A stretch of 35,338 bases of DNA from a virus. The position numbers were made by a program, and so were the translations under genes. The notes below the pieces were generated by a model. It ran no database searches. It was not told the DNA's origin and saw nothing but the letters and a program-made list of their open reading frames with translations. The DNA lies in UHGV virus genome UHGV-0289455; one strand, given 5' to 3'. Positions 232-32,903 of the stretch are shown here, piece after piece. How positions within the stretch are numbered: the stretch's first letter is position 1; every line of letters starts with the position of its first letter.

Positions 232-498
232 TTACTCTGCAGGTGAAGTCGGCCACTCAATATCAGGTGCAGTTGATGTATCAACACGATTCAACAATAC
301 CCGATATTTATTCCATGCCTCCAGCAACGATCTTTCTTCCTCCGTTGCGATTTCCAGATCTACAGCATCCTGCAGTGGCGCAATATACTCACTGAATTCC
401 TGGATGTAGAACTGTGTGGTGACGGTCTTCCAGCCATTCGGCTCCTGCTGTATCGAAGCATACCAGGCTATTTCAATATCGCTATGCTGCGGCAGCAT
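232..498 (-). pseudogene. tfa: tail fiber assembly protein (Tfa) C-terminal fragment; 5' half missing
   Basis: Translation ...[47 protein letters not shown] matches the C-terminus of lambda Tfa as I recall it. The ATG at 496-498 is immediately preceded by an in-frame TAA, so no N-terminal half exists. Confidence 0.6.
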
Positions 499-554: not shown

Positions 555-1223
555 ATGGTGAAATTAATGAAAAAAAACACAGATGATGGGGCTAAAATTT
601 ACACACCACTTACCCTAAAGCTTTATGACTGGTGGGTTTTGGGAGTATCAAATCGGCTTGCATGGGGATGTCCTACAAAGGAACACCTTCTTCCACACTT
701 TCTGGAACATTTAGGTAACAACCATCTGGATATTGGTGTTGGAACTGGGTTTTACCTTACTCACGTACCTGAGAGTAGTCTGATATCTTTAATGGATTTG
801 AACGAAGCTAGCCTGAACGCGGCATCTACAAGGGCAGGGGAATCAAAAATTAAACATAAAATTAGCCATGATGTTTTTGAACCTTATCCCGCGGCGTTAC
901 ATGGTCAATTTGATTCCATTTCCATGTTTTACCTTCTTCACTGCCTGCCTGGAAATATATCTACAAAAAGCTGTGTAATACGCAATGCGGCGCAGGCCTT
1001 AACTGACGATGGAACTCTATACGGAGCCACAATTCTTGGCGATGGAGTTGTGCACAATAGCTTCGGTCAAAAACTGATGCGCATTTACAATCAGAAAGGC
1101 ATCTTTTCAAACACAAAAGATTCCGAAGAAGGCTTAACACATATACTCTCAGAGCATTTCGAGAATGTTAAAACCAAGGTTCAAGGTACTGTAGTAATGT
1201 TTTCCGCTTCAGGGAAAAAATAG
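555..1223 (+). CDS. class I SAM-dependent methyltransferase (orphan cargo gene)
   Basis: 222-aa ORF with a glycine-rich SAM-binding motif (HLDIGVGTGFYL); no DPPY/NPPY motif seen, so probably not an N6-adenine DNA methyltransferase. GC looks lower than the flanking phage genes. The arrangement (tfa remnant, methyltransferase, tfa remnant) resembles tfaD-ybcY-tfaX of K-12 DLP12 from memory. Confidence 0.55.
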   Translation: MVKLMKKNTDDGAKIYTPLTLKLYDWWVLGVSNRLAWGCPTKEHLLPHFLEHLGNNHLDIGVGTGFYLTHVPESSLISLMDLNEASLNAASTRAGESKIKHKISHDVFEPYPAALHGQFDSISMFYLLHCLPGNISTKSCVIRNAAQALTDDGTLYGATILGDGVVHNSFGQKLMRIYNQKGIFSNTKDSEEGLTHILSEHFENVKTKVQGTVVMFSASGKK

Positions 1224-1277: not shown

Positions 1278-1406
1278 TTACTCCCTGACAGGGTTCGTAG
1301 GCCACTCAATATCAGGTGCAGTTGATGTATCAACACGGTTCAGCAACACCCTGCATGCCTTCCATGCCGCCAGCAATGATGTTTCCTCCTTCGTTGCATA
1401 TACTGC
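1278..1406 (-). pseudogene. tfa: second tail fiber assembly (Tfa) 3' remnant, about 42 codons, no start codon
   Basis: Minus-strand frame reads [42 protein letters not shown]-stop, bounded upstream by an in-frame TGA. About 40 nt (roughly 1303-1340) are near-identical at DNA level to 272-309. Confidence 0.45.
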
Positions 1407-1415
1407 TCACCTTTT

Positions 1416-1709
1416 TCACCCACGATTAACCAACAGCCAGACCAGCAGACACGCCACCACCGGCACAGCAAAATCCATCAGGCTTGCCACATCCCATGCA
1501 CGTGGATCAAAACCGCCCCACCACGGCATGTTAATCCGCTTGCCATGCCCGAACATTTCAATCCAGCGATATTCTGCCTGGGTGTGTTCACGCGCAATGA
1601 AGAACGTACAACCGGCTATCGCCCCGTAAGCCCAGTTTCCGGTAAAAAGACCAGCCAGTACCTGCACCGCCACGGCACAAAGCGCATGAAGTATCGACGT
1701 GATATCCAT
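1416..1709 (-). CDS. small hydrophobic membrane protein, function unknown
   Basis: 97-aa ORF with 2-3 predicted hydrophobic helices. Good Shine-Dalgarno (GGGGAG) 4-5 nt upstream of the ATG; sits 9 nt after the preceding ORF. Confidence 0.5.
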   Translation of the reverse strand: MDITSILHALCAVAVQVLAGLFTGNWAYGAIAGCTFFIAREHTQAEYRWIEMFGHGKRINMPWWGGFDPRAWDVASLMDFAVPVVACLLVWLLVNRG

Positions 1710-1718
1710 CTGCTCCCC

Positions 1719-1997
1719 TTAAAACCACTCCCTTAGCGGGCGCTCTGGTGTAACCACCCACTCACGGAACACGGATTCATCAAAGCCATCGTCAAGAAGA
1801 CGAATATTAACAAAGTACCCTTCGTCTCGCGTGTATTCAGGCTCCCCGTCAGCAGAAACACCTGACTCACTGAACGTAAAACCAATCTCATCAACCAGAA
1901 CGGCATTCTGCAGCTCTTCGTCCTCTTCCCAGTTAAGTTTCCTGAGAAATGCCCTGAAATCTGCTTTATCACTGAAACGCAACGTGAAATCTCTCAC
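1719..1997 (-). CDS. hypothetical protein translationally coupled to side tail fiber (possible fibre chaperone/accessory)
   Basis: 92-aa acidic ORF whose start overlaps the stf stop (ATGA-type overlap at 1994-1997). No recognisable Tfa motif. Confidence 0.4.
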   Translation of the reverse strand: MRDFTLRFSDKADFRAFLRKLNWEEDEELQNAVLVDEIGFTFSESGVSADGEPEYTRDEGYFVNIRLLDDGFDESVFREWVVTPERPLREWF

Positions 1998-4057
1998 TCC
2001 ACAACCTCCCCAAGCTGCGCATCTGTTAGCTCTTTATGCCAGAGACGAAAATTCCTCACATGCCCAAATAAATGGCGTAATCCTGCTGTAGTTTGTCCAC
2101 CAATGCGAATGGTTGCTGTACTCCGGATATATTCCCATTTGGTTTTAGTTTCGCTGCTTAACTTACCGTTACTGACTACACATGTGGACCGTTCGGACTT
2201 TACCCGCATACCAATAAGCATTTTTTCCAGCCCGGCATTTTCATTTATTCGTCGGTCTGAACCACCTATATCACAATACGGAAAACCGTCGTACCCACCT
2301 GATGAACCAAACCCCATTACGATCCCCGCATCTGCCTGATGCCGGTATGTGTCAAAAACACGCGGTGCTGCATTTGGCGTTTTATACCAGTTCTTATGTA
2401 CCTCACAAAGAACCGTAAAAGGAAGATTATAAAGGTTATTCTTGATTGGGACTGTCACCATATCGCTTGCCCGCGTTGCCGGTGCCGTCCCCGTAACAAT
2501 AAAAGATGATGCGCCTGTACCAGCCTCAATCTGTGGAGTGGTTACATCGAGATAATCCCCTGATGTAACCATCTGCCCTGTATCCGGAGAATACTGGACA
2601 AAACCACCAACCGTATTTTCTGTTGTATCTGCTTTTAATGTAGCCTCAAAAAATATCCAGCCAGTTGCATCATCCTTAACAGACCTTGCTGTAACACGGC
2701 TTGTCTGACCTGTCTTGCTAATTATGCGGGTGGTAAGGTTCAGGTTTGCTGCTCCTATTGATGTCCTTACCTCCCCATCATAATGTTCAAATAAAATACG
2801 AACGGCGATATTATCAACTTCACTTTTTACCCGACAGGATATAGTTACATGCTTTTCGTCCCCTGAAGTATCAACCCCTCCGGTACTCGAATACAGTCCG
2901 ATAATGGTATGCGCTTTACTTGTACCAACAATCGAATCCTGTACGACAAACCGACCATAATTAAACCCGAAACTATCTGTGCCTGTTTCTGTAACGTCCA
3001 GTGAAGTTGACTTATTCCACTTCGAAGGGTCTGTACTGTTCTGGAAGAAGTTCGTTCTTTGTCCCTCAATAAGCAGGCCATCACACTCAAATCGCGGCTC
3101 ATTAATTTCCGCCGTTTTCAGTTCGCCAGATTTGTTGATATATGTTGCCGTTGATGCGCGACTGAAATTAACCTGTTTATCACTGGCAACCTGAACCACA
3201 TTATCACCAATCTTCACTTTTTTATAACCCGGAGAATAGCCCGTAATCATATCCAGCGAATCATTAAAGGGTATCCACACATCCGGCAGCGGCTGTAAAA
3301 CATATCTGTACGGCTCTGCTGTCTGGTTTGCGTATTCTCTGGCAGCATCTTCACTTGCTTTTGCTGCCGTCTGGCTTGCTGCCGATGCTTTCGCCGAGTT
3401 CGCCGCCGCTGTTTCGCTCACCTTTGCGTTGGCTTCACTGTCTTTGGCATTCGTCTCACTGGTTTTCGCTGCCGTCTGGCTGGATTTTGCGTTTTTTTCG
3501 CTGGCCTTTGTGGCTGTCTCGCTATTTTTCGCGCTGGTTTCTGATTTTTTGGCTGCTGTCGCGGAGTTTGCCGATGCAGTCTGCGAGGCCGCTGCCGCCT
3601 GTGCGCTGTTAGCTGCATTCGTTTCTGAGGTTTTCGCCGCATTCTTCGATGAGGCTGCTGCCGTTTCGGATTTCTTTGCCGCCGCTGCACTCTGTGATGA
3701 CGCTCCGGCATGACGTGCCACTTCATTCACCATCAGCTCAAAACGGCGCAGTGCCTCCGGACGAACATCATCCTCCGTCATGGCGCCGAGAAAATCATTC
3801 AGCGTACCTGGTCTGGAACCTTCATAGACGGTAATGGTCCCGGCATGTGAAGGCGGAAAATCTTCAACCAGCAGGGTGACGCTGTACTGGCCATACTCAA
3901 CATCCATGCTGTAACGCCCGGCTTCATCCGGATTTTCAGAGGCCACCGTGTTCACCACCACCGTGCTGCTGGTCCGTCTGGCCTTCAGCACAATGGTGCA
4001 GTTCTGTACTGGTTTTCCTGTGCCATCTTTAAGCACGCCAGAAATTTTTACTGTCAT
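1994..4057 (-). CDS. stf: side tail fiber protein Stf, chimeric: lambda-like N-terminus, Ala/Ser/Thr-rich repeats, LamG/concanavalin-like C-terminal domain
   Basis: N-terminus MTVKISGVLKDGTGKPVQNCTI...SHAGTITVYEGSRPGTLNDFL matches lambda Stf as recalled. The C-terminal 350 aa diverge and end in an ...FRLWHKELTDAQL motif typical of laminin-G-like jelly-roll domains. Confidence 0.85.
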   Translation of the reverse strand: MTVKISGVLKDGTGKPVQNCTIVLKARRTSSTVVVNTVASENPDEAGRYSMDVEYGQYSVTLLVEDFPPSHAGTITVYEGSRPGTLNDFLGAMTEDDVRPEALRRFELMVNEVARHAGASSQSAAAAKKSETAAASSKNAAKTSETNAANSAQAAAASQTASANSATAAKKSETSAKNSETATKASEKNAKSSQTAAKTSETNAKDSEANAKVSETAAANSAKASAASQTAAKASEDAAREYANQTAEPYRYVLQPLPDVWIPFNDSLDMITGYSPGYKKVKIGDNVVQVASDKQVNFSRASTATYINKSGELKTAEINEPRFECDGLLIEGQRTNFFQNSTDPSKWNKSTSLDVTETGTDSFGFNYGRFVVQDSIVGTSKAHTIIGLYSSTGGVDTSGDEKHVTISCRVKSEVDNIAVRILFEHYDGEVRTSIGAANLNLTTRIISKTGQTSRVTARSVKDDATGWIFFEATLKADTTENTVGGFVQYSPDTGQMVTSGDYLDVTTPQIEAGTGASSFIVTGTAPATRASDMVTVPIKNNLYNLPFTVLCEVHKNWYKTPNAAPRVFDTYRHQADAGIVMGFGSSGGYDGFPYCDIGGSDRRINENAGLEKMLIGMRVKSERSTCVVSNGKLSSETKTKWEYIRSTATIRIGGQTTAGLRHLFGHVRNFRLWHKELTDAQLGEVVE
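3330..3720 (-). repeat. low-complexity coding repeats inside stf (KxSETxA-type)
   Basis: Translation shows reiterated AAKTSETNA / AKNSETATKASEKNAK units. The long ORFs in other frames here (3418-3726 minus, 3429-3713 plus) are frame shadows. Confidence 0.6.
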
Positions 4058-4071
4058 ACTTTTCCACCAAT

Positions 4072-4102
4072 AAAAAAAGCCCGCAGCAGTGACGCCACGG
4101 GC
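4072..4102 (-). terminator. rho-independent terminator between lom and stf
   Basis: On the minus strand a GCCCG/CGGGC stem is followed by TTTTTTT, then the stf Shine-Dalgarno (GGTGGA) and ATG. Confidence 0.5.
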
Positions 4103-4208
4103 TTCAGGACAGTGTAACTTTACGTTTCCTCAAACGCAGTTCACCCCATAAGGCGGATGAACCTGCGTATCATAACAATATTTACAGAAGATAAATCGGC
4201 GTCTGTTG

Positions 4209-4737
4209 TCAGAAACGGTATCCGATACCAACAATAAATGCATCCGTTCGCCAGTCGCCACTACCGGAACCTTCATAAGCAATATCAATGGTCACGGATT
4301 CGGTCGGGTTAAACTGCACGCCAGCTCCCCACGCCAGAGACGTGTTGCTGTGGCGATCGTCATCACTTCCGGTCAGCACATCGTGCGTTTTCCCCTTGTT
4401 GTCAGTTACGCGGAGATAATCCCCGGAGAACGTCGACACACGGCTGTAAGCCACACCTGCCATCGCATAAGCACTGAACCATTCATTCACGCGCACAGAC
4501 GGCCCCGCCATTACGCTGAACCAGCGGTTACGCACGGAATCTTCATGCCAGCGTGTCCGTAAACTCATAACGGTATTTCACGTTAATCCCGTTCAGATCA
4601 TCGCTGCCAGGCATATCAGTATGGGTCTGAAGATACCCGGCGCTTAGTGTGGACTGATGCTCTGCTGCGCTCGCTGGCGTACCAGCGGCAACCAGCCAGA
4701 CTACTGCGGACAGAATAACAGCACATAATTTACGCAT
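4209..4737 (-). pseudogene. lom: lom outer-membrane protein, disrupted (internal deletion/frameshift)
   Basis: Two overlapping ORFs in different frames: 4543-4737 (signal peptide plus ...GINVKYRYEFTDTLA-stop) and 4209-4568 (...VMAGP...AYAMAGVA...IDIAYEGSGSGDWRTD...GIGYRF). Together they cover lambda Lom with a stretch of roughly 15 aa missing at the junction near 4545-4580. Confidence 0.6.
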
Positions 4738-4761: not shown

Positions 4762-4785
4762 AAAAAAGGCGCCATTTCTGGCGCC
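4762..4785 (-). terminator. rho-independent terminator downstream of J
   Basis: GGCGCCA/TGGCGCC stem followed on the minus strand by TTTTTT, 20 nt after the J stop and before the lom Shine-Dalgarno. Confidence 0.5.
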
Positions 4786-4804
4786 CGTATTGGGGTTATA
4801 AAAT

Positions 4805-7800
4805 TCAGCTAATCGTGATGCCTGCAGTGGCTTTCTTCATCACAACAACCAGCAAATCGCTGATACTTGCTGTGGGATACCAGCCATTTACCCACCATGC
4901 TGATACAGAAAACTCCAGCGTCATGTGGCCGCGACCAGCAGGCATATCAATAACACCACTGTAAACCAGCGTATTATCCATCGCGGTACGGTTATAAATT
5001 TCAGCACCGTTTTTCTTCACTATCAGGCGGCATGACGAATAAGTATCGCTGTTCTCCCGCTCATGTCTGGCACCGCTGAAAGCCACCGCCGGAATAACAA
5101 TCTGCCGGTTAAACGGCTGATCGTCATAAACCCTGACGGTAATGGTTCCTGATGGCCAACGCTTCGGTGCACGGGAGTCACGAGGGAAAGCCTTACCCAC
5201 TGTTTTAACGAGATCGCCTTCAATCTGGTTTGCAGACAGTTTCCCTCTGATGACACAGTTCTCGTTAATGGTGACATTATTGAGCGTGCCGGTATTCGCC
5301 GTGATGGCTCCACTGATATCCGCATTGCGGGCTGTCAGCCTGCCATCCGGCGTCAGGGAAAACGTCGGAGGATTGCCGGATGACGTGATGCTCACCGCAA
5401 ACAGTCGCTTCAGGAACACGTCGTTCATGAACAGCTGATTCCCCTGCGCCACAAACAGCGGCGTGGTGTTGCCGTTCTCCGGGGTAATCATCGCAATGCG
5501 ATCGGCCTGCAGCAGAATGTTACTCAGGGTCTGACCATCAACATCCTCAATCCCCACGCCAATCCCGGCCACATAGGGAATACCGTTTTTTGTTTTCTGC
5601 ACCTTCAGCATATACATGGCATTCAGCTCATTGCGCGTGTCTGACTGAACCCGCTGGATTTGCTGTATGGTCACGGCCTGGTCACCCAGTTTTTTATCCG
5701 TGGTCGAGGTAATTTCACTCCCTTTTTTATCCACGTACTGGCGGACCTGTGCTATCTGTCGGGCGTTTTCTGACTGCCCCTGGCTGACAGTCTGTGAGAT
5801 TTCACTGCTAACCCGGTCCACTTTCTGGCTCATCTGCGCGATGGCCAGTGTCTGGTCCTCATTCTTTTTCGCAACCAGCTGCGTGAGGCTGTTTTCCGCC
5901 TCCCCGATTTTCCGGGTCACTTCTGCGATATCCGTGTCCATCCGCTGACGGATGTCTTCTTCCAGTTGCGTGACCTCCGTACGCAGCGCTGAAGCATCAA
6001 TGCGCTCTTTCAGTGCCTGACCCAGAAGCGTCTCATCTATCAGCCCCCGGAAAATTTCCAGATACCCTTCACCATCATTGCTGGGCTGCCCGCTGGCTTC
6101 CACAAAAGCAGATTTTCCCACCAGGTTGACGCTTCGCACGTAAAACCAGAAATCCGTCCCCGGCTTAATCCGGCTCCCCTGGACAGTCCACTGACTGCCG
6201 GACCCCAGATAACGGGCAGATTTTTCCACCTGTGCCGTGTTCGTGATGCGTTTTTCTGAGAACCAGAATTCAAACTGTATCGTCGGATCATACACCGCAA
6301 GACGCGGGACCGCCGTTATCTGAAAATACCCCGGCGTCAGCTCAATGGTGGCGGGTTTTGCAGGTGCGTTAATCCGGAAGGTGGTGGTGGCAGGTTCACC
6401 CTGCTGGCCATAACTGTTTATCGCCCGCACCGTCAGGGTGTATTCCCCCAGTGGCAGGCCACTGAAACGGTGCTCCGTGTCTGCGGTGATGGCGGTGGTC
6501 ACCAGTCTGGCATCCGTTCCCTTACCACTGGTCAGGCGCAGACTGAAGCGCACGCCCTTCACCACCCGCGGCGTGTCCCATTTAGCCTGCGCCAGATACT
6601 GGCCGTCAGCTGCGCTCACCTCCACCGTCAGGTGCTGTACTGCCGGTGGGATGACGCTGTTCAGGGAGCCTGACTGCGGCTCAAAGCGGGCACCGTTATC
6701 CACGATGGCTTCTTTTTCCGGTACGTGCTGCACCGCCGTGATGGCAAAGGTGCCGTCCGTGTTTTCCCGGATGGAGACACAGCGGAACAGGCGACGGCGC
6801 AGTGACGGCAGGGAGAGTCCCCACACACCGTATGTCTCCACACCATCCGGCAGGGTGCTGACCTGTATCCGGTCAGGCGCGGGGTGTGCGGTGATGGCCA
6901 CGCTCGCCGGCTTACCGCTGCCGTTAATCAGATTAACAGTGGCCGTGCCGGTCTCCGGCAGTGTCACCTCCCGGTCCAGCGTCAGGATACGGCTGGCGGC
7001 ATCGATGGACAGGACACGTCCGCCGGTCATGGTCCCGGCATAGTCGTTATCACAGATTTCAATGATGTCACCGGGTGTGTGCCGCAGCCCCTGAGACCCG
7101 AGCGTGAAATCCACCGTCTGCGTTTCCAGCAGTTCGGTCTTTATCACCCACAGCCCGGCACGGTGGGCCTGACCGCGGCTGGTACAGCCGAACGCGTCCA
7201 TCTTCAGCAGGTTGCGTCCGTAGCGCAGTATGGCTTCCGGGTCTTCCACCAGTTCCGTGGAGGTCTGCCAGCCGTTCTGCGGGTCGGTGTAATTCACCTC
7301 CACCGCCGTGTGCCGGTCCTTCAGGGCACTGAAGCTGTAGCGGAACCCCACGCCGTTATCATCCACCACCACATCGCTGTTGGTGTACGGCCACACCACA
7401 TCCGACGGGCGGTCCTGAACGAACGTCAGCGTCTGACCGTTCCATACCGGCATACAGCGCATCGCAGAGCAGAAATCACTGAGAACGTCCCACGCCTTAC
7501 GCTGTTGTGCCAGGTACGCATTAAAGGTCATCCGCGGCTCGGTCCCCCCGAAACCATCCGGGACCGTCTGGTCGCAGTACTGCCCGATGGCATACAGCGC
7601 CCACTTGTCCACATCCGCCGCCCCCAGACGTTTTCCCATGCCGTAGCGCGGGTGAGTCAGCATGTCCCACAGGCACCAGGCCGGGTTGTTGCTGTATGCC
7701 GGTTTCAGACTGCCGTCCCAGATACCACTGTACGTGCGTTTTTCCGGGTCATAGTTTGACGGCACCTGGATGATGCGACCGCGGATATGGTAGTTCACCG

Positions 7801-8497
7801 TCATCTGCTGGCCGCCGAACTGCTCCGCATCCACCTGCAGCCCCACAATGGCCGTGTTCGGGTAGCACTGTTTCACATCGATGATTTCGGTGTATGACGA
7901 CCACAGCGTCTTATTCTGCAGCTGGTCCGTGGTGCTGTCCGCCGTCTCCCTGACCATCCGGATGTTAAAGGGCCGGGGAGGCAGATTATCCAGAATCACC
8001 GAGGCCAGGAACTGTGAGGTGGTCTTGCCGTTAATGGTGACGTCCTTTTCCGTCACCCAGCGGCCATTACGCTGTAACTGAATCAGAATCCGGACAGAGG
8101 AAGGATTACGGTCGCCCCTTGACGTGGTCTGCACCAGTGACTGCACCCCGAAGGTAACCCGCAGGCGGTCAATGTTCGCGGACGTAATGGTGCGCGTCAC
8201 CGGTTTTGCCTTCGTCACTTCCACGCCCAGTCCGGTTTCAGCTCCGGAGGACTCAAAGCCTTCCGGTGGTGTCTGCTCCTGCTCCCCGGCACGCCAGACC
8301 GCGGTCACACCGTGTATCACGGGATTACCGTCCGTGTCCGTCAGCGGGGTTTTGTTCACCAGGATACTCTGCAGTCCCTTCACCGGACCTTCTATCGGTC
8401 CCTCACCAATCGCATCAATCACACTCATCATCTGCGTGGATTTGAGATTATCCTTCGCCTCACGAGGCGTGTGTGCCTTACCGCCACCTTTTCCCAT
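4805..8497 (-). CDS. J: central tail fiber / host specificity protein J
   Basis: 1230 aa. The C-terminus ...[25 protein letters not shown]...[77 protein letters not shown] is near-identical to the lambda J receptor-binding end as I recall it. Confidence 0.95.
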
Positions 8498-25230: not shown

Positions 25231-25557
25231 TCAAGGACGTGACGGCGTAAAGATAAATTGTCTCTTCACTCCCTGACAGGGGCGATTCTTTTCAAATCGC
25301 CATTTCGCCATGGCCTTCACCACTTCATCACGAAACAAATTATGAGGCTCTGAGCGGAGAAAAACGATCCGTGTCACAGTCCCATCAGCACCAATATCGA
25401 ACTTAACCTCAACCAGCCCCTTGATATAATTTGCTGCAGCATATTCCGGATATCGTGGATACACCGTCACTAATTGCCGGGGCTCATCAGCTTTTTGCTG
25501 CGAGCATCCCACTGCCAGGACAGATAACAGAAAAAGTAGTAAAAGGCGTCTTTTCAT
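25231..25557 (-). CDS. small lipoprotein consisting of a TonB C-terminal-like domain
   Basis: Start taken at MKRRLLLLFLLSVLAVGCSQQ (lipobox-like AVG-C). The rest (YPRYPEYAAANYIKGLVEVKFDIGADGTVTRIVFLRSEPHNLFRDEVVKAMAKWRFE) aligns by eye with the C-terminal domain of E. coli TonB. Confidence 0.6.
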   Translation of the reverse strand: MKRRLLLLFLLSVLAVGCSQQKADEPRQLVTVYPRYPEYAAANYIKGLVEVKFDIGADGTVTRIVFLRSEPHNLFRDEVVKAMAKWRFEKNRPCQGVKRQFIFTPSRP

Positions 25558-28287: not shown

Positions 28288-28503
28288 TTACTCTCCCCGC
28301 GCCGCCTTACGCCGGTCCTCTTTGATTTTGAAATACAGGTTAGTCAGGTACGTCAGCAGCCCAAACAGCAGACTCCCCAGCACGCCTATTGCCGCCCACT
28401 GAGACGGGGAAACCCTGTCCAGCAACTGCAGGAACCAGTAGCCCGTTCCCACCGCTGACGTGGTGTATGACACACCTGTTGTGATTTTTTCCATCTGGTA
28501 CAT
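28288..28503 (-). CDS. S: pinholin S (phage-21 S-like, dual-start motif M-Y-Q-M)
   Basis: [71 protein letters not shown] matches S21 as recalled (71 aa). GGGAGA Shine-Dalgarno upstream. Confidence 0.85.
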
Positions 28504-29181: not shown

Positions 29182-31158
29182 TCATGCCGCGATGTCCGCG
29201 TTGTTCACTTCCACCTTCACACTGTCAATCAGCAGCGTATATGTCGCCGCCTTTGATATGCCTGTCAGTTGCAGTTTGTCCGCCGCCCCTGATGCCGGAG
29301 ATTTCACCAGTGTGAACGGCGTCCCCCGTTTCTCATCCAGTACCGGCGTCACCTGAATGCTGTTGTTTCCGGCAAACTCAAAAGCCAGTGTGTGCCATCC
29401 GTTATCAAAGACCCCGAACGTTTCCAGCTTCGCATTCGGCTTCTTGTGGTGCATCGCGTTCAGGTTCGTCGCATCCGTCTGCAGAAAGAAGGACATCAGC
29501 ATGTCGTTGCCTTCCTCTGCCAGCGTCACTCCCTCCGGCAGGGACGACAACTGCCAGTAAATGCCCAGGGCAAACTGATTCGGCACCAGTGAACCCGGCA
29601 ACTTAAACCGTACGCTCACACGTCCCCCCTTCTTCAGTAACTCCACTCCCTGTCCGGCTGCATCATGCTCCAGAAACCAGATGTGGTTTTCCGGTTTATT
29701 CAGTTGCAGGGCCTTACCTCCCGTAGCCCCCGCATCACTGACCACCGCTTCAGCAATGTTTTTGTTAACATTGTCTCCGCTCGCCGGTTTGTGATAATAG
29801 CGCCAGCCCTGTGATGCCAGGTCTTCGCCGGACGCCAGCAGACTCATCAGGGTTCGGTTACTGACCGGGGCTTCCGGCTCTCTCTCCGTACCTTCACCGG
29901 AAGGTCCGGTGGGCTTCACCGTATCAGGCTGTTTTCCGGTAATGAATTCAGCGTTTCTCCCGGCATGCACAAGAATCGCCGTTGCCAGACGGTCGGAAAT
30001 AATCCCACGACGTGCCCATGATCCAAAATGCGTTTTACGGTCAGCCGTCGTCCAGGTTTTGGCGTCCGTTCGACCACCGGCTCCGTAATACCCAATATCC
30101 GCAACATCCGGATCTTCTGACGGCTCGTTGGTACCCACATTTCGCCCGTTTTCATCCGTCATAAACGGCACAAAGAAGATTTTTTTTGCGGATTTCGTCT
30201 TGTATGCACCATACACCGCATCGTATTGCGAAGAATAAGTCTGCTTCCAGTAGTAGGTCGTGTCGCCACAAATCCAGGGAACCGATGACGGAGAGCCCCC
30301 GAGACACTGACCTCCGAATTCCGACAGGTCAGAACGATATTTTTCCACCATGGAATCAAACAGCCCCGGCTGGGTGGCGTATGCACCCTGTTTCAAATCA
30401 AACTCGCCCTGCATCCAGACCACTGCAAGCAGAATATTTTTAGGGTTGGCCTTCAGTGCGGCCTGAGTACGGGTAAGCAGGTCCTTGTACAGTGGCTTAT
30501 CTACACCCCAGCGTGCCGAGGTCTCGCTTGCGCCGGTGGATTCGCTGAAGGTACCTTCATCGCCCGCCAAAAATGCAGAACCACCACGGCAGCACGGAAC
30601 CAGAAGAATACCGGCATTCGCCGGAATAAACGGCAACAATTTCTTCGCGATATGTAATCCCTGCCCCACGCATCCATACTGAGCTGCACTGGCTTTCGGG
30701 TGTGAAAACTTACTCAAATCCTGAACATCATGCAGGCAGTGGTCCGCAGGAATAATGTCATTGTAGTTACAGAACGCACCACCCGGCGTGACAGTGCTGC
30801 GACGCGCCAGCTGTTTAATACGCGGGTCCGGACGGTCATATGTCTCCGGCAGCGGAAGCCCTTCACCATACGCCATACCGTTTGACTGCCCGGCCAGGGC
30901 AACAACAAAGTAATACTCCGGGTTGCTGGTGGTGCTGATAACTGCGCCTTCTCCATCCGACGGCTTCACCACCACAGGTGTGGTGACATCACCTTCCGCC
31001 GCAATGGCCTGCATCAGGGTATAAGGCGTGATGGCCACCGGACTGCCAAATGGCTGCCACCCCTCCTTCAGTTTTTGTGTCAGTCGTTTCGCAAGGTCTG
31101 ACGGCGATGCCGCCCTGACAACATCATAGTGTTTAAATGCCATGGTTCTTTCCACCAT
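29182..31158 (-). CDS. nanS-p: prophage-encoded sialate O-acetylesterase NanS-p (DUF1737 N-domain, SGNH/SASA esterase domain, C-terminal carbohydrate-binding region)
   Basis: 658 aa. N-terminus MAFKHYDVVRAASPSDLAKRLTQKLKEGWQPFGSPVA is the DUF1737 signature, followed by VVALAGQSNGMAYGEG (SGNH GQSN motif). Sits between the Q/tRNA region and the holin, as in Stx-phage-like prophages. Confidence 0.85.
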   Translation of the reverse strand: MVERTMAFKHYDVVRAASPSDLAKRLTQKLKEGWQPFGSPVAITPYTLMQAIAAEGDVTTPVVVKPSDGEGAVISTTSNPEYYFVVALAGQSNGMAYGEGLPLPETYDRPDPRIKQLARRSTVTPGGAFCNYNDIIPADHCLHDVQDLSKFSHPKASAAQYGCVGQGLHIAKKLLPFIPANAGILLVPCCRGGSAFLAGDEGTFSESTGASETSARWGVDKPLYKDLLTRTQAALKANPKNILLAVVWMQGEFDLKQGAYATQPGLFDSMVEKYRSDLSEFGGQCLGGSPSSVPWICGDTTYYWKQTYSSQYDAVYGAYKTKSAKKIFFVPFMTDENGRNVGTNEPSEDPDVADIGYYGAGGRTDAKTWTTADRKTHFGSWARRGIISDRLATAILVHAGRNAEFITGKQPDTVKPTGPSGEGTEREPEAPVSNRTLMSLLASGEDLASQGWRYYHKPASGDNVNKNIAEAVVSDAGATGGKALQLNKPENHIWFLEHDAAGQGVELLKKGGRVSVRFKLPGSLVPNQFALGIYWQLSSLPEGVTLAEEGNDMLMSFFLQTDATNLNAMHHKKPNAKLETFGVFDNGWHTLAFEFAGNNSIQVTPVLDEKRGTPFTLVKSPASGAADKLQLTGISKAATYTLLIDSVKVEVNNADIAA

Positions 31159-31403: not shown

Positions 31404-31739
31404 ATGAAGTGGATTGTGATTGATACAGTTATCCAACCATCATGCGGAATATCTTTTTCAGTCATATGGAGTAAAATAAAATTAATAATCTGGTATCAAT
31501 CGGATGCTTTCTTACCTCCTGAAAGTATATTTACACTGACTCACACAGGTATCATGCTCAATAACAAAGTGCTACCTGTAACCATTTACAACGTAGCACC
31601 ATTCAATAAAACATTCTGGAATTTAATCAAAAACAGCCAGGAATGTCCTACAAATACAGATAACGTATTGAATGAATGCTTTAATAACCGTTGCACTCTG
31701 CAAATATGTCCTTATGGACTAAAACAACAAAGTCCATAA
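31404..31739 (+). CDS. hypothetical protein encoded on an AT-rich moron, opposite to the late operon
   Basis: 111-aa ORF with a canonical AAGGAG Shine-Dalgarno 7 nt upstream; the surrounding segment (about 31160-31760) is conspicuously AT-rich; GC-rich hairpin at 31781-31803 downstream. Cysteine-rich C-terminal part. Confidence 0.5.
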
Positions 31740-32653: not shown

Positions 32654-32727
32654 CGCGCTGTACTGGATTCGAACCAGTGACCGATTGCTTAGAAGGCAAT
32701 TGCTCTGTCCGGCTGAGCTAACAACGC
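32654..32727 (-). tRNA. tRNA-Arg (anticodon UCU)
   Basis: Minus strand GCGTTGTTAGCTCAGCCGGACAGAGCAATTGCCTTCTAAGCAATCGGTCACTGGTTCGAATCCAGTACAGCGCG: cloverleaf with a GTTCGAATC T-loop and a TCT anticodon loop; CCA not encoded. Confidence 0.85.
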
Positions 32728-32827
32728 TGAATACCGATAATGGACCGCCATCGGGGACCCGCCCCCGCACCAACAACCCTGTTATCGTGTCGTCTGCTCT
32801 TCCTGATAAGCTAATGGCGGTTTGTGA

Positions 32828-32903
32828 TGGTGGCCCTTGCTGGATTTGAACCAGCGACCTGGCGATTATGAGTCGCTCGCTCTCACCACTGAGCTAAAGG
32901 GCC
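32828..32903 (-). tRNA. tRNA with CAU anticodon (tRNA-Ile2/Met type, ileZ-like of Stx-phage tRNA clusters)
   Basis: Minus strand GGCCCTTTAGCTCAGTGGTGAGAGCGAGCGACTCATAATCGCCAGGTCGCTGGTTCAAATCCAGCAAGGGCCACCA, with encoded CCA; resembles E. coli ileX as recalled. Confidence 0.85.

What the first reader, a model, noticed from the sequence alone, without database searches (positions are those of the whole stretch)
1416..4057. Chimeric side tail fibre with LamG-like tip and non-canonical downstream partners
Stf has a lambda-type N-terminus but a different C-terminal receptor-binding region ending in a laminin-G-like motif. Instead of an intact Tfa chaperone it is followed by a translationally coupled 92-aa acidic ORF and a 97-aa membrane protein (each with its own ribosome-binding site), then only a Tfa remnant. 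This suggests a swapped host-range module that uses a different helper, and the membrane protein could be an exclusion factor linked to the same receptor.
Basis: partly seen in the sequence, partly recalled or inferred. Interest (0 to 1): 0.45.

Follow-up and report, generated by a model that had tools for sequence, protein, structure and literature searches.

The report
Mosaic side tail fibre module
A lambda-like prophage of E. coli carries a side tail fibre whose outer two-thirds is a sugar-binding-type module shared with many unrelated phages; the module always comes with a small uncharacterised partner gene and is followed here by a conserved small membrane-protein gene. This makes the locus a common, natural host-range cassette whose two helper genes have never been studied.

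Summary
Stf (1994-4057, minus strand) has a lambda-type N-terminus (PF08400, E 1e-67). Its C-terminal ~430 residues are 35-65% identical to lateral fibres of T5-like, T1-like, Dhillonvirus, Seuratvirus and rV5-like phages. That region contains a domain homologous to the RcGTA head-spike fibre, followed by a sub-threshold LamG-like end.

The 92-aa acidic ORF starts on the Stf stop codon (GTGA). Its homologues follow this fibre type in 80 of 80 viral contigs and in virulent phages that have no Tfa. Its divergence tracks the fibre C-terminus, not the distal fibre present in sister phages. It belongs to a small phage-only family with no Pfam match and no structural neighbour. It is most likely the cognate partner of the lectin-like module, as assembly helper, cap or adaptor.

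The 97-aa membrane protein belongs to a larger family with an invariant loop. It sits at the end of receptor-binding-protein loci of temperate phages whatever the fibre or spike type, and also occurs as a lone chromosomal gene. It is therefore not tied to one receptor.

Two Tfa C-terminal remnants flank a methyltransferase gene. Fibre mosaicism of this kind is ordinary; the two accessory families are uncharacterised.

The parts
1994..4057 (-). stf: mosaic side tail fibre gene, 687 aa, intact
   Evidence: ORF. PHROG phrog_1419 'tail protein', 1175 bits. RefSeq WP_023143421 'prophage tail fiber N-terminal domain-containing protein'. 98.4% identical to the fibre of isolated phage ev243.
3665..4057 (-). 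Stf residues 1-131: lambda-type N-terminal tail-attachment domain
   Evidence: PF08400 E 1.3e-67. Residues 1-94 match lambda Stf chain 9e7m_Ta, E 2.4e-47.
3308..3739 (-). Stf residues ~107-250: Ala/Ser/Thr-rich repetitive shaft. The junction between the lambda-type part and the widely shared module lies here, around residues 110-170.
   Evidence: The translation shows AKxSETxAxxS-like repeats and there is a strong AT skew. BLAST to fibres of virulent phages begins at residues 127-169.
2423..3166 (-). Stf residues ~298-545: beta-rich domain homologous to the RcGTA head-spike fibre (Rcc01080). Probable glycan-binding, specificity-determining part.
   Evidence: NCBIfam NF048003 GTA_spike_fiber, 68.6 bits against a cutoff of 36. 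PDB 6tb9 Rcc01080: E 0.0056 with the single sequence and 5.5e-16 with the profile. This is the most variable block in alignment A3.
1997..2422 (-). Stf residues ~546-687: conserved C-terminal LamG/galectin-like end (…IRIGGQTTAGLRHLFGHVRNFRLWHKELTDAQLGEVVE)
   Evidence: PF13385 sub-threshold at residues 630-681, and in 8 of 8 homologues. 53-79% identical across sipho- and myoviruses over the last 150 aa, 26% in SA126VB. The homologous IrisVonRoten Gp22 is described with a C-terminal galectin-like domain (PMC11990801).
1719..1997 (-). 92-aa acidic protein (pI 4.25), translationally coupled to stf. Belongs to phrog_1361 / pVOG VOG7707. Proposed cognate partner of the lectin-like fibre module.
   Evidence: GTGA start/stop overlap and Shine-Dalgarno sequence. 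phrog_1361 E 2.5e-39, with no Pfam, NCBIfam or PADLOC match. AF2 pLDDT 87.6. Linked to the fibre in 80 of 80 loci. Its identity tracks the fibre C-terminus, r about 0.8.
1416..1709 (-). 97-aa small membrane protein (phrog_1443; one UniRef name 'Ybl63') with the invariant loop AREHTQAEYRWI…G.GKR.NMPWWGGFD
   Evidence: phrog_1443 E 6e-58 and no Pfam, NCBIfam or PADLOC match. 571 clusters of homologues. AF2 pLDDT 94 with three helices. Conservation and charge profile.
1278..1397 (-). Tfa C-terminal remnant directly downstream of the 97-aa gene
   Evidence: Translation …[36 protein letters not shown]. RefSeq pseudogene 'tail fiber assembly protein, missing N-terminus'.
555..1223 (+). Class I SAM-dependent methyltransferase gene, inserted in opposite orientation between the two Tfa remnants
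   Evidence: Several Pfam methyltransferase domains. phrog_2132. RefSeq annotation.
232..498 (-). Second Tfa C-terminal remnant (88-aa ORF; RefSeq pseudogene 232-405). Together with 1297-1397 it forms a 101-nt direct repeat (248-348), 85% identical.
   Evidence: PF02413 Caudo_TAP E 3.9e-25, profile positions 75-131 of 131 only. Direct repeat D1.
4209..4737 (-). lom pseudogene (frameshifted), bracketed by terminator-like hairpins at 4076-4105 and 4767-4786, immediately upstream of stf
   Evidence: PF06316 is split over two ORFs. RefSeq annotates it as 'frameshifted'. Terminator scan.

Best explanation
The locus is a natural host-range cassette recombined into a lambdoid prophage.

**Stf.** The fibre keeps the lambda-type N-terminus that plugs into the tail. 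From roughly residue 120 onward it is replaced by a module that circulates among temperate and virulent sipho- and myoviruses. The module has three parts:
- an Ala/Ser-rich shaft;
- a beta-rich domain homologous to the capsule-binding head-spike fibre of RcGTA;
- a conserved LamG/galectin-like end.

The homology is shown. It is inferred that this lectin-like end binds a surface glycan (O-antigen or capsule), and that it does not need the Tfa-type tip chaperone of lambda.

**92-aa protein.** It is made by translational coupling from the same message, and it is the dedicated partner of the lectin-like module. Shown: invariable linkage, coupling, co-divergence, and conservation with a stand-alone lectin-like protein in Comamonas prophages. 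Inferred: it binds the C-terminal module, either to help it fold or to cap it. In sister phages that encode a second fibre directly after it, it possibly also contributes to the docking site for that fibre. This prophage encodes no such distal fibre, so here the lectin-like end is itself the receptor-binding tip.

**97-aa protein.** It is a separate, portable accessory gene of temperate phages that sits at the 3' end of receptor-binding-protein operons of any type. Its distribution is shown. It is inferred to act in the inner membrane through its invariant charged/aromatic loop on a generic target, for example blocking entry by superinfecting phage or altering envelope glycan synthesis. It is not inferred to act on the specific receptor of this fibre.

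**Tfa fragments.** These are scars of the fibre/chaperone pair that the cassette displaced. They were later split by a methyltransferase gene insertion.
For: Mosaic structure: PF08400 N-terminus. The C-terminal 435 aa are 35-65% identical to fibres of 2G7b, IrisVonRoten Gp22, tuinn, rolling, nimi, PhiR11 and SA126VB.

Lectin-like nature: NF048003 above its cutoff. PDB 6tb9 Rcc01080 at E 5.5e-16 with the profile. Tagged Rcc01080 binds encapsulated cells more strongly than capsule-less cells (PMC10218006 and PMC7296036). PF13385 sub-threshold in 8 of 8 homologues. A galectin-like domain has been described for Gp22.

Tfa independence: neither Pfam S74 nor Tfa is found in Stf or the 92-aa protein. 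Virulent phages and PhiR49_2 carry the module with no tfa gene.

Partner status of the 92-aa protein:
- GTGA overlap.
- The small gene is present in 80 of 80 IMG/VR loci, starting at the fibre stop.
- 195 phage records hold a homologue. In the records listed that carry annotation, a tail-fibre gene usually overlaps the match.
- The family is almost entirely stand-alone proteins of 85-125 aa, with only 99 representatives in 1.84 billion proteins.
- Pairwise identity correlates with the fibre C-terminus, r about 0.8.
- PhiR11 and 2G7b share a 75%-identical distal fibre but have small proteins only 36% identical.
- dN/dS is about 0.41 in modules without a distal fibre and about 0.40 in modules with one.
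- A homologous small protein follows a stand-alone lectin-like protein in Comamonas (hhalign 91.8%, E 7e-7).

The 97-aa protein as a portable gene of receptor-binding loci:
- 88-100% identical behind different fibre modules.
- Found behind P22-type tailspikes next to int, and beside an OafA acetylase.
- Found behind a Tfa in phiHAP-1 and behind a 720-aa ORF with a spike-like N-terminus in Leclercia (the reading of that ORF is mine, it was not scanned).
- Lone copies occur in Silvania and Aeromonas chromosomes.
- Absent from the virulent phages that carry the fibre and small gene.
Against: - No physical interaction was tested. A complex could not be predicted with the tools available.
- In every virulent siphovirus examined, a second fibre gene follows the small gene at about 10 nt, with a conserved N-terminal motif (M.T.T.IPxDIxxL). 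This fits an adaptor role at least as well.
- Side tail fibres are dispensable for lambda growth in the laboratory (my own knowledge). The viability of ev243 and PhiR49_2 therefore does not prove that the fibre without a distal partner works.
- dN/dS of about 0.4 indicates only moderate constraint.
- For the 97-aa gene, the triad lectin protein / small protein / membrane protein recurs with overlapping stops and starts in Comamonas. This could mean a real functional tie to this fibre type.
- No promoter-like site precedes the 97-aa gene. In 2G7b-type loci it lies just after a terminator hairpin. This suggests late, antiterminated expression rather than expression in the lysogen.
Confidence: 0.6

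Rival explanations
1. The 92-aa protein is a structural adaptor, a 'knee' or docking piece. It sits on the LamG-like end of a proximal fibre and holds the conserved N-terminal peptide of a distal, receptor-binding fibre. In this prophage the distal fibre gene has been lost, and the small gene is a functionless or half-functional leftover.
For: A distal fibre gene starts 9-13 nt after the small gene in 2G7b, PhiR11, IrisVonRoten, fp01, SA126VB, tuinn, rolling and L089. Most share the motif M.T.T.IPxDIxxL, and several carry a Peptidase_S74 self-chaperone, so they need no external helper. The BASEL paper models Gp24 of IrisVonRoten as attached to the proximal fibre Gp22. In the window, the 97-aa gene occupies exactly the slot of the distal fibre gene.
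Against: The small protein co-varies with the proximal fibre, not with the distal fibre: PhiR11 and 2G7b have distal fibres 75% identical and small proteins 36% identical. About 55 of 80 IMG/VR loci, plus ev243, PhiR49_2 and PhiR40_1, keep the small gene without any distal fibre. dN/dS is the same as in loci that have a distal fibre (0.41 against 0.40). Comamonas prophages pair it with a stand-alone lectin-like protein, and no distal fibre gene lies between the small gene and the 97-aa gene there. The rV5-like phage nimi has no motif-bearing gene after it.
Confidence: 0.25
2. The 97-aa membrane protein is a superinfection-exclusion factor matched to the receptor recognised by this Stf, comparable to Cor or Llp with FhuA.
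For: It lies directly after the host-recognition genes, where cognate exclusion genes are known to sit in other siphoviruses (BASEL paper text; an annotated exclusion gene lies beside the J locus of phage rolling). It is confined mostly to temperate phages. The lectin/small/membrane triad is conserved in Comamonas.
Against: Nearly the same protein follows different fibre modules, unrelated P22-type tailspikes and Tfa-dependent fibres. It is predicted to be an inner-membrane helical protein with no signal peptide or lipobox, so it is unlike Cor or Llp (the lipoprotein nature of Cor and Llp is my own knowledge). A fibre of this type is expected to bind an outer-surface glycan. No PADLOC or PHROG functional match.
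Confidence: 0.1
3. The 97-aa protein acts late in the lytic cycle as a membrane factor, for example a holin/antiholin-like lysis-timing protein or a block on re-infection of the producing cell. On this reading it is not a lysogen-expressed conversion gene.
For: It is co-oriented with, and 9 nt behind, late structural genes, with no promoter-like site. In 2G7b-type loci it is separated from the fibre genes only by a terminator hairpin, which antiterminated late transcripts would read through. In Comamonas-type prophages it directly precedes ORFs that I read as holin, endolysin and spanin genes from their sequences. It is small, has 2-3 transmembrane helices, and many homologues have basic C-termini.
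Against: The window has its own class II holin, lysozyme and lysis-protein genes 25 kb away. The extreme conservation of a 34-residue loop is atypical for holins. Lone chromosomal copies that persist after prophage decay suggest a benefit to the cell. No PHROG lysis annotation.
Confidence: 0.1

Closest known systems
Lambda (Ur-lambda) Stf with its Tfa chaperone
   Same: The N-terminal 131 residues belong to the same family (PF08400) and are about 88% identical over the solved part. The position after J and lom is the same. Remnants of tfa lie downstream.
   Different: The whole distal part is unrelated. There is no intact tfa. A non-homologous 92-aa gene follows instead (no PF02413 match).
Lateral fibre locus of T5-like phage IrisVonRoten (Bas32): Gp22 proximal fibre with galectin-like end, gp23, Gp24 T-shaped distal fibre (PMC11990801)
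   Same: Stf residues 127-686 are 54% identical to Gp22. The 92-aa protein is 45% identical to gp23. The start/stop overlap is the same.
   Different: IrisVonRoten has a T5-type N-terminus and a distal receptor-binding fibre (Gp24) after gp23. The window has no distal fibre and instead has a membrane-protein gene. The paper does not discuss gp23 as a separate gene product.
RcGTA head-spike fibre Rcc01080 (PDB 6tb9; binds capsular polysaccharide)
   Same: Stf residues ~298-545 are homologous to it (NF048003 above its cutoff; profile E 5.5e-16). Its predicted structure is lectin-like and beta-rich.
   Different: Rcc01080 is a single-copy head decoration anchored by an N-terminal peptide. It is not the end of a tail fibre. 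No small-partner gene is mentioned in the two RcGTA papers read, and I did not examine its locus.
Alteromonas phage V22/A5 tail fibres with stand-alone downstream chaperones acting as transient caps (PMC10579305)
   Same: A small cognate gene lies directly after the fibre gene. The pair moves as a module between unrelated phage families. Dependence on the helper may vary.
Branched lateral fibres of DT57C (LtfA/LtfB; PMC4728585, PMC10713586)
   Same: The concept is shared with sister loci of this module: a proximal fibre carrying a second fibre.
   Different: LtfA and LtfB both end in S74 self-cleaving chaperone domains. No small intervening gene came up in the passages retrieved from those papers, and I did not examine the DT57C locus. 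No sequence relationship to the C-terminus studied here was seen.
Accessory genes beside receptor-binding genes of temperate phages: cor (phi80/N15), llp (T5), fun/Z (P2, between G and FI), gtrABC/oac (P22-like, between tailspike and int). Recalled from my own knowledge, except where the BASEL text is cited.
   Same: The 97-aa gene occupies these same slots: after stf in lambdoids, between tailspike and int in Lederbergvirus phages, and between the Tfa and sheath genes in phiHAP-1.
   Different: It has no sequence match to any library family. It is a small helical membrane protein with an invariant polar/aromatic loop. Its function is unknown.

Membership tests
Lambda-type side tail fibre (Pfam PF08400 phage_tail_N) | N-terminal tail-attachment domain scoring above the Pfam gathering score | tested here: met
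   226.4 bits against a cutoff of 26.6, residues 1-131. Match to lambda Stf in PDB 9e7m.
Lambda-type side tail fibre (Stf/Tfa system) | Intact downstream Tfa (PF02413) acting as tip chaperone | tested here: not met
   Only two C-terminal fragments are present, covering profile positions 75-131. The 92-aa protein has no PF02413 match.
GTA head-spike fibre domain (NCBIfam NF048003) | Score above the curated cutoff | tested here: met
   68.6 bits against a cutoff of 36, residues 329-530. Profile hit to Rcc01080 at E 5.5e-16.
Laminin_G_3 / concanavalin A-like lectin (PF13385) | Score above the Pfam gathering score, or a jelly-roll fold in a structure model | tested here: inconclusive
   17.7 bits against a cutoff of 27.6, covering only the last third of the profile. 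The same match appears in 8 of 8 homologues (best E 3.5e-5). No structure model of the Stf C-terminus was made. A published model of the homologue shows a galectin-like domain.
Fibres with a C-terminal S74 intramolecular chaperone (T5 pb1, K1F, DT57C Ltf) | Peptidase_S74 domain (PF13884) at the C-terminus | tested here: not met
   Absent from Stf. Present in the distal fibres of sister loci.
phrog_1361 / pVOG VOG7707 (small protein following LamG-ended fibres) | Full-length profile match and position directly after the fibre gene | tested here: met
   E 2.5e-39 over positions 1-92 of 92. VOG7707 labels appear on the homologues in tuinn, nimi and rolling. Junction conserved in 80 of 80 loci.
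Known tail-fibre chaperone folds (Tfa; IMC-like stand-alone chaperones) | Sequence or fold similarity of the 92-aa protein to these | tested here: not met
phrog_1443 (97-aa membrane protein family) | Full-length profile match | tested here: met
   E 6e-58 over positions 1-96 of 97. 571 homologous clusters.
Known anti-phage defence or exclusion proteins (PADLOC-DB; annotated PHROGs) | Profile match for the 97-aa or the 92-aa protein | tested here: not met
   No PADLOC match at E <= 1. Both PHROG families are labelled 'unknown function'.
Holins | Small membrane protein in a lysis cassette that triggers lysis | tested here: inconclusive
   Size and helices are compatible. It lies next to putative lysis genes only in Comamonas-type prophages. 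The window's own holin is at 28288-28503. Function is not testable here.

The most novel reading that the evidence does not exclude
The lectin-like fibre end, the small acidic protein and the membrane protein form an ancient functional triad of temperate phages, conserved from E. coli lambdoids to Comamonas prophages. The small protein would be a new class of fibre-tip partner. It would also create a universal socket for interchangeable distal fibres, which carry the conserved N-terminal peptide M.T.T.IPxDIxxL in sipho- and myoviruses. The membrane protein, through its invariant loop, would protect the producing or lysogenic cell by acting on the glycan pathway or on the entry route that such fibres exploit.
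Probability: 0.15. Interest if true: 0.65.

Novelty: new variant of a known kind. Interest (0 to 1): 0.4.

Why it matters
Side and lateral tail fibres decide which strains a phage or a phage-derived delivery particle can reach, and engineered lambda Stf chimeras are already in use (PMC11338833).

- **The module.** It is a ready-made, naturally portable, Tfa-independent fibre end found in at least five phage groups. Knowing what its obligatory 92-aa partner does (folding helper, cap or socket for a second fibre) would tell engineers which genes must travel together.
- **The 97-aa protein.** It belongs to a widespread, strongly conserved prophage membrane-protein family in Enterobacteria, Aeromonas and Comamonadaceae, and it has no known function. 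If it is an exclusion or envelope-modifying factor, it would affect phage susceptibility in many clinical E. coli lineages.

Neither point is established here. Fibre mosaicism itself is ordinary.

Tried and rejected
- **Large proteins hit by the 92-aa profile** (P0168 with PKD repeats, P0183 with TPR/CHAT, P0213 a repetitive fibre). These are low-complexity or repeat artefacts, not fusions.
- **DT57C LtfA/LtfB as a model.** Rejected because both use S74 domains and show no sequence relationship to this C-terminus.
- **rV5 virion proteomics as evidence that the small protein is in virions.** Not usable, because the rV5 fibre the paper describes (gp41) ends in an S74-type domain, not this module.
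- **The search for related loci with the diverse alignment A1.** It failed because no conserved stretch was found. I used the fibre C-terminus as the query instead.
- **PADLOC, Pfam and NCBIfam.** They gave nothing for either small protein.
- **Literature searches.** Searches for 'Ybl63', LamG/concanavalin-type fibres in lambdoid phages, and chimeric Stf helpers found no study of either small gene.
- **dN/dS for the Stf C-terminus.** Discarded because indels between alleles break the ungapped codon comparison.
- **First motif scan for distal fibres.** My first regex was too strict and missed the distal fibres in rolling and L089. The rescan corrected this, and a relaxed rescan of the window still found none.
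- **Structure of the Stf C-terminus.** Not predicted.

Full report
**Context.** The window is the late region of a lambdoid prophage. It is 100% identical to E. coli NMBU-W13E19 (NZ_CP043406) directly downstream of potB, and the same 4.8 kb is 100% identical in at least ten complete genomes. On the minus strand the order is:
- J (4805-8497);
- a frameshifted lom (4209-4737);
- stf (1994-4057);
- a 92-aa ORF (1719-1997);
- a 97-aa ORF (1416-1709);
- a Tfa C-terminal fragment (1278-1397);
- a plus-strand SAM methyltransferase gene (555-1223);
- a second Tfa C-terminal fragment (232-498).

**Checking the observation.**
- Stf residues 1-131 are a lambda-type N-terminal domain (PF08400, E 1.3e-67). 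Residues 1-94 align at about 88% identity with lambda Stf in PDB 9e7m.
- The stf stop and the 92-aa start overlap as GTGA, with GGGGAGG 7 nt upstream. The 97-aa ATG follows the 92-aa stop by 9 nt, behind AAGGGGAG.
- The 92-aa protein is acidic (pI 4.25).
- The 97-aa protein is predicted as three long helices (AF2 pLDDT 94), with two strongly hydrophobic segments and one weaker one.
- Both Tfa fragments cover only the C-terminal end of the family profile (positions 75-131 of 131; translation). They lie on 101-nt direct repeats, 85% identical, on either side of the methyltransferase gene.
- The description is therefore correct, except that there are two Tfa remnants rather than one.

**The fibre.**
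- From about residue 127-170 onward, Stf is 50-61% identical to fibres of other phages by BLAST. These are the lambdoid phages 2G7b and PhiR11, the T5-like IrisVonRoten (Gp22), the T1-like tuinn and the Dhillonvirus rolling. It is 41% identical to an rV5-like myovirus fibre (nimi) and 32% identical to a Seuratvirus fibre (SA126VB).
- In global alignment, the last 435 residues are 35-65% identical to these fibres.
- Residues ~298-545 match the NCBIfam domain 'GTA_spike_fiber' above its cutoff. They also match the RcGTA head-spike fibre Rcc01080 in the PDB, at E 0.0056 with the single sequence and 5.5e-16 with a profile of eight homologues.
- Rcc01080 is a lectin-like, beta-rich protein. A fluorescently tagged version binds encapsulated R. 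capsulatus cells more strongly than capsule-less cells (PMC7296036, PMC10218006).
- The final ~140 residues are the most conserved part of the module. They are 53-79% identical across morphotypes, apart from 26% in SA126VB.
- This end gives a sub-threshold match to the end of Laminin_G_3 in all eight homologues.
- The second BASEL paper models the homologous IrisVonRoten Gp22 as a proximal fibre with a galectin-like domain protruding from its C-terminus.
- No S74 intramolecular chaperone domain is present in Stf.

**The 92-aa protein.**
- It belongs to phrog_1361 (unknown function) and pVOG VOG7707. It has no Pfam, NCBIfam, PADLOC or PDB sequence match (VOG labels).
- An exhaustive HMMER search of 1.84 billion representative proteins found only 99 relatives. 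Almost all are stand-alone proteins of 85-125 aa. The three long hits are repeat artefacts.

Its genomic behaviour is the informative part:
- tblastn finds homologues in 195 phage records. In the records listed that carry annotation, a tail-fibre gene usually overlaps the match.
- All 80 IMG/VR loci recovered with the last 151 residues of Stf have the small gene starting at the fibre stop.
- Across eight phages, its pairwise identity correlates with that of the fibre C-terminus (r about 0.8). It evolves faster than the fibre.
- Comamonas-type prophages have a stand-alone 390-430-aa protein that matches the Stf C-terminal profile (E 1e-10 to 3e-16). A homologous small protein follows it with an overlapping stop and start (hhalign 91.8%, E 7e-7).
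- The partner of the small protein is therefore the lectin-like module itself.

**A complication: distal fibres.**
- In many sister loci a second fibre gene begins 9-13 nt after the small gene. This is seen in 2G7b, PhiR11, IrisVonRoten Gp24, fp01, SA126VB, tuinn, rolling and L089.
- Most of these distal fibres share the N-terminal motif M.T.T.IPxDIxxL; fp01 is an exception. Several carry Peptidase_S74, and one (L089) is followed by an ORF that I read as a Tfa from its sequence.
- The BASEL authors place Gp24 on the end of Gp22. The small protein could therefore be a docking adaptor.

Evidence against a purely adaptor role:
- PhiR11 and 2G7b have distal fibres 75% identical with almost the same N-terminus. 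Their small proteins are only 36% identical, which follows their proximal fibres (49-55%).
- The window-type module has no distal fibre. The same holds for 45 IMG/VR loci, ev243, PhiR49_2 and PhiR40_1, and for a second type of 10 loci that appears to end its prophage.
- No motif-bearing ORF exists anywhere in the window.
- The small gene shows the same moderate constraint with and without a distal fibre: dN/dS 0.40 and 0.41.

I therefore favour 'cognate partner of the lectin-like end (helper or cap), possibly also part of a socket'. The pure adaptor reading remains the main rival. Because side tail fibres are dispensable for lambda in the laboratory (my own knowledge), the viability of ev243 and PhiR49_2 does not prove that the fibre without a distal partner is functional.

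**The 97-aa protein.**
- It belongs to phrog_1443 (unknown function), and one UniRef entry calls it 'Ybl63'. No paper in the library mentions that name.
- The family has 571 clusters in Escherichia, Shigella, Salmonella, Enterobacter, Leclercia, Aeromonas and Comamonas. None has a Pfam domain.
- A 34-residue loop between the second and third helices is almost invariant: AREHTQAEYRWI…G.GKR.NMPWWGGFD. It carries most of the K/R residues, so the positive-inside rule places it in the cytoplasm. The basic C-termini of many homologues leave the topology open.

Its distribution differs from that of the small protein:
- It is absent from the virulent phages that carry the fibre/small-gene pair.
- It is 88-100% identical behind both types of lambdoid module, with and without a distal fibre.
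- It is 76-81% identical in P22-like phages, between the tailspike gene and int. In one of these it lies near an OafA O-acetylase gene.
- It follows the Tfa gene and precedes the sheath gene in Halomonas phage phiHAP-1. By my own knowledge, this is the slot that fun/Z occupies in P2.
- It follows a 720-aa ORF with a spike-like N-terminus in Leclercia, and fibre plus putative Tfa genes in a Comamonas-like genome (these readings are mine, from ORF sequences).
- It occurs as a lone gene in Silvania, between ORFs that I read as ttcA and an ompN-like porin, and also in Aeromonas.
- This is the pattern of a portable accessory gene of temperate phages attached to receptor-binding loci in general, not to one receptor.

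Some points argue for caution:
- The lectin/small/membrane triad with overlapping stops and starts recurs in Comamonas.
- No promoter-like site precedes the gene.
- In 2G7b-type loci it sits immediately after a terminator hairpin. This hints at late, antiterminated expression.
- In Comamonas-type prophages it abuts ORFs that I read as a lysis cassette.
- Fold search gave only generic helical bundles.

**Mechanism, as far as it can be stated.**
- *Shown:* mosaic architecture; homology of the distal part to a capsule-binding lectin-like protein; absence of Tfa and S74; strict linkage, translational coupling and co-divergence of the small gene; receptor-module-independent distribution of the membrane-protein gene.
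- *Inferred:* the fibre binds a surface glycan through its GTA-like/LamG-like end; the small protein binds that end; the membrane protein acts on a generic inner-membrane target; the Tfa fragments are scars of a displaced Stf/Tfa pair, later split by the methyltransferase insertion.

**Comparison with what is known, and novelty.**
- Tail-fibre mosaicism and module exchange between unrelated phages are well documented (for example PMC10579305, PMC8594841).
- The closest described locus is Gp22-gp23-Gp24 of IrisVonRoten, where the middle gene is not discussed as a separate gene product.
- The closest functional analogy for a small downstream helper is the Alteromonas V22/A5 chaperone 'cap'. That protein has an S74-like helical fold, unlike the 92-aa model.
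- The locus is thus a new variant of a known kind: a fibre with a cognate downstream partner and an adjacent accessory gene, whose two small families are widespread but uncharacterised.
- Interest is moderate. It is practical value for fibre engineering and a candidate prophage membrane function, not a surprise in principle.

Noticed in passing
window 555-1223 (+), with repeats at 248-348 and 1297-1397: A class I SAM-dependent methyltransferase gene lies in opposite orientation between two Tfa C-terminal fragments that form 101-nt direct repeats (85% identical). The same tfa'-methyltransferase-tfa' arrangement appears in many isolated lambdoid phages (ev243, 2G7b, PhiR26_1 and others). PhiR49_2 lacks the methyltransferase gene.
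   Followed up: partly
window 4209-4737 (-), 4076-4105 and 4767-4786: lom is frameshifted in this prophage, and terminator-like hairpins bracket it on both sides. The downstream hairpin ends only about 20 nt before the stf start.
   Followed up: no
L004:4292-5329, L005:5289-7013, L006:4292-4792, L008:~3766 onward, L009:4283-5323, L011:4278-6038, L089 (frame 2, just after position 3948): Distal fibre genes that follow the small gene share the N-terminal peptide M.T.T.IPxDIxxL in lambdoid, T5-like, T1-like, Dhillonvirus and Seuratvirus phages, although their bodies differ (S74-type, T-shaped, or followed by a putative Tfa). This may be a universal docking peptide. In phage rolling the gene is not annotated.
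   Followed up: partly
L102:3551-5294, L103:3297-5294, L106 and L110 (Comamonas and a 'Pantoea sp. 18069' assembly): A stand-alone lectin-like protein of 390-430 aa, a small-protein homologue (95-188 aa, some with a C-terminal extension) and a 97-aa homologue are chained by overlapping stops and starts. ORFs that I read as holin, endolysin and spanin genes follow.
   Followed up: partly
L101:4998-5336 (Silvania hatchlandensis) and L100 (Aeromonas molluscorum): Lone copies of the 97-aa family lie in what look like non-phage or decayed-prophage surroundings. In Silvania the copy sits between ORFs that I read as ttcA and an ompN-like porin, the region where Rac is integrated in E. coli K-12 (my own knowledge). 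This suggests the gene is retained after prophage decay.
   Followed up: no
L004:5330-5368 and L009:5324-5365: In loci that have a distal fibre, a GC-rich hairpin followed by a T-run (GGGGxCGAGCGCCCC GTTTTATT) lies between the distal fibre stop and the 97-aa start. The membrane-protein gene therefore sits just behind an intrinsic-terminator-like site.
   Followed up: no
window 25231-25557, 29182-31143, 31404-31739, 32654-32903: The rest of the late region carries a small 'TonB family protein' gene between the terminase and lysis genes, a SASA-family carbohydrate esterase gene, an IraM anti-adapter gene, and tRNA-Arg and tRNA-Ile genes. I recognise these as typical accessory cargo of Stx-phage-like late regions (my own knowledge).
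   Followed up: no
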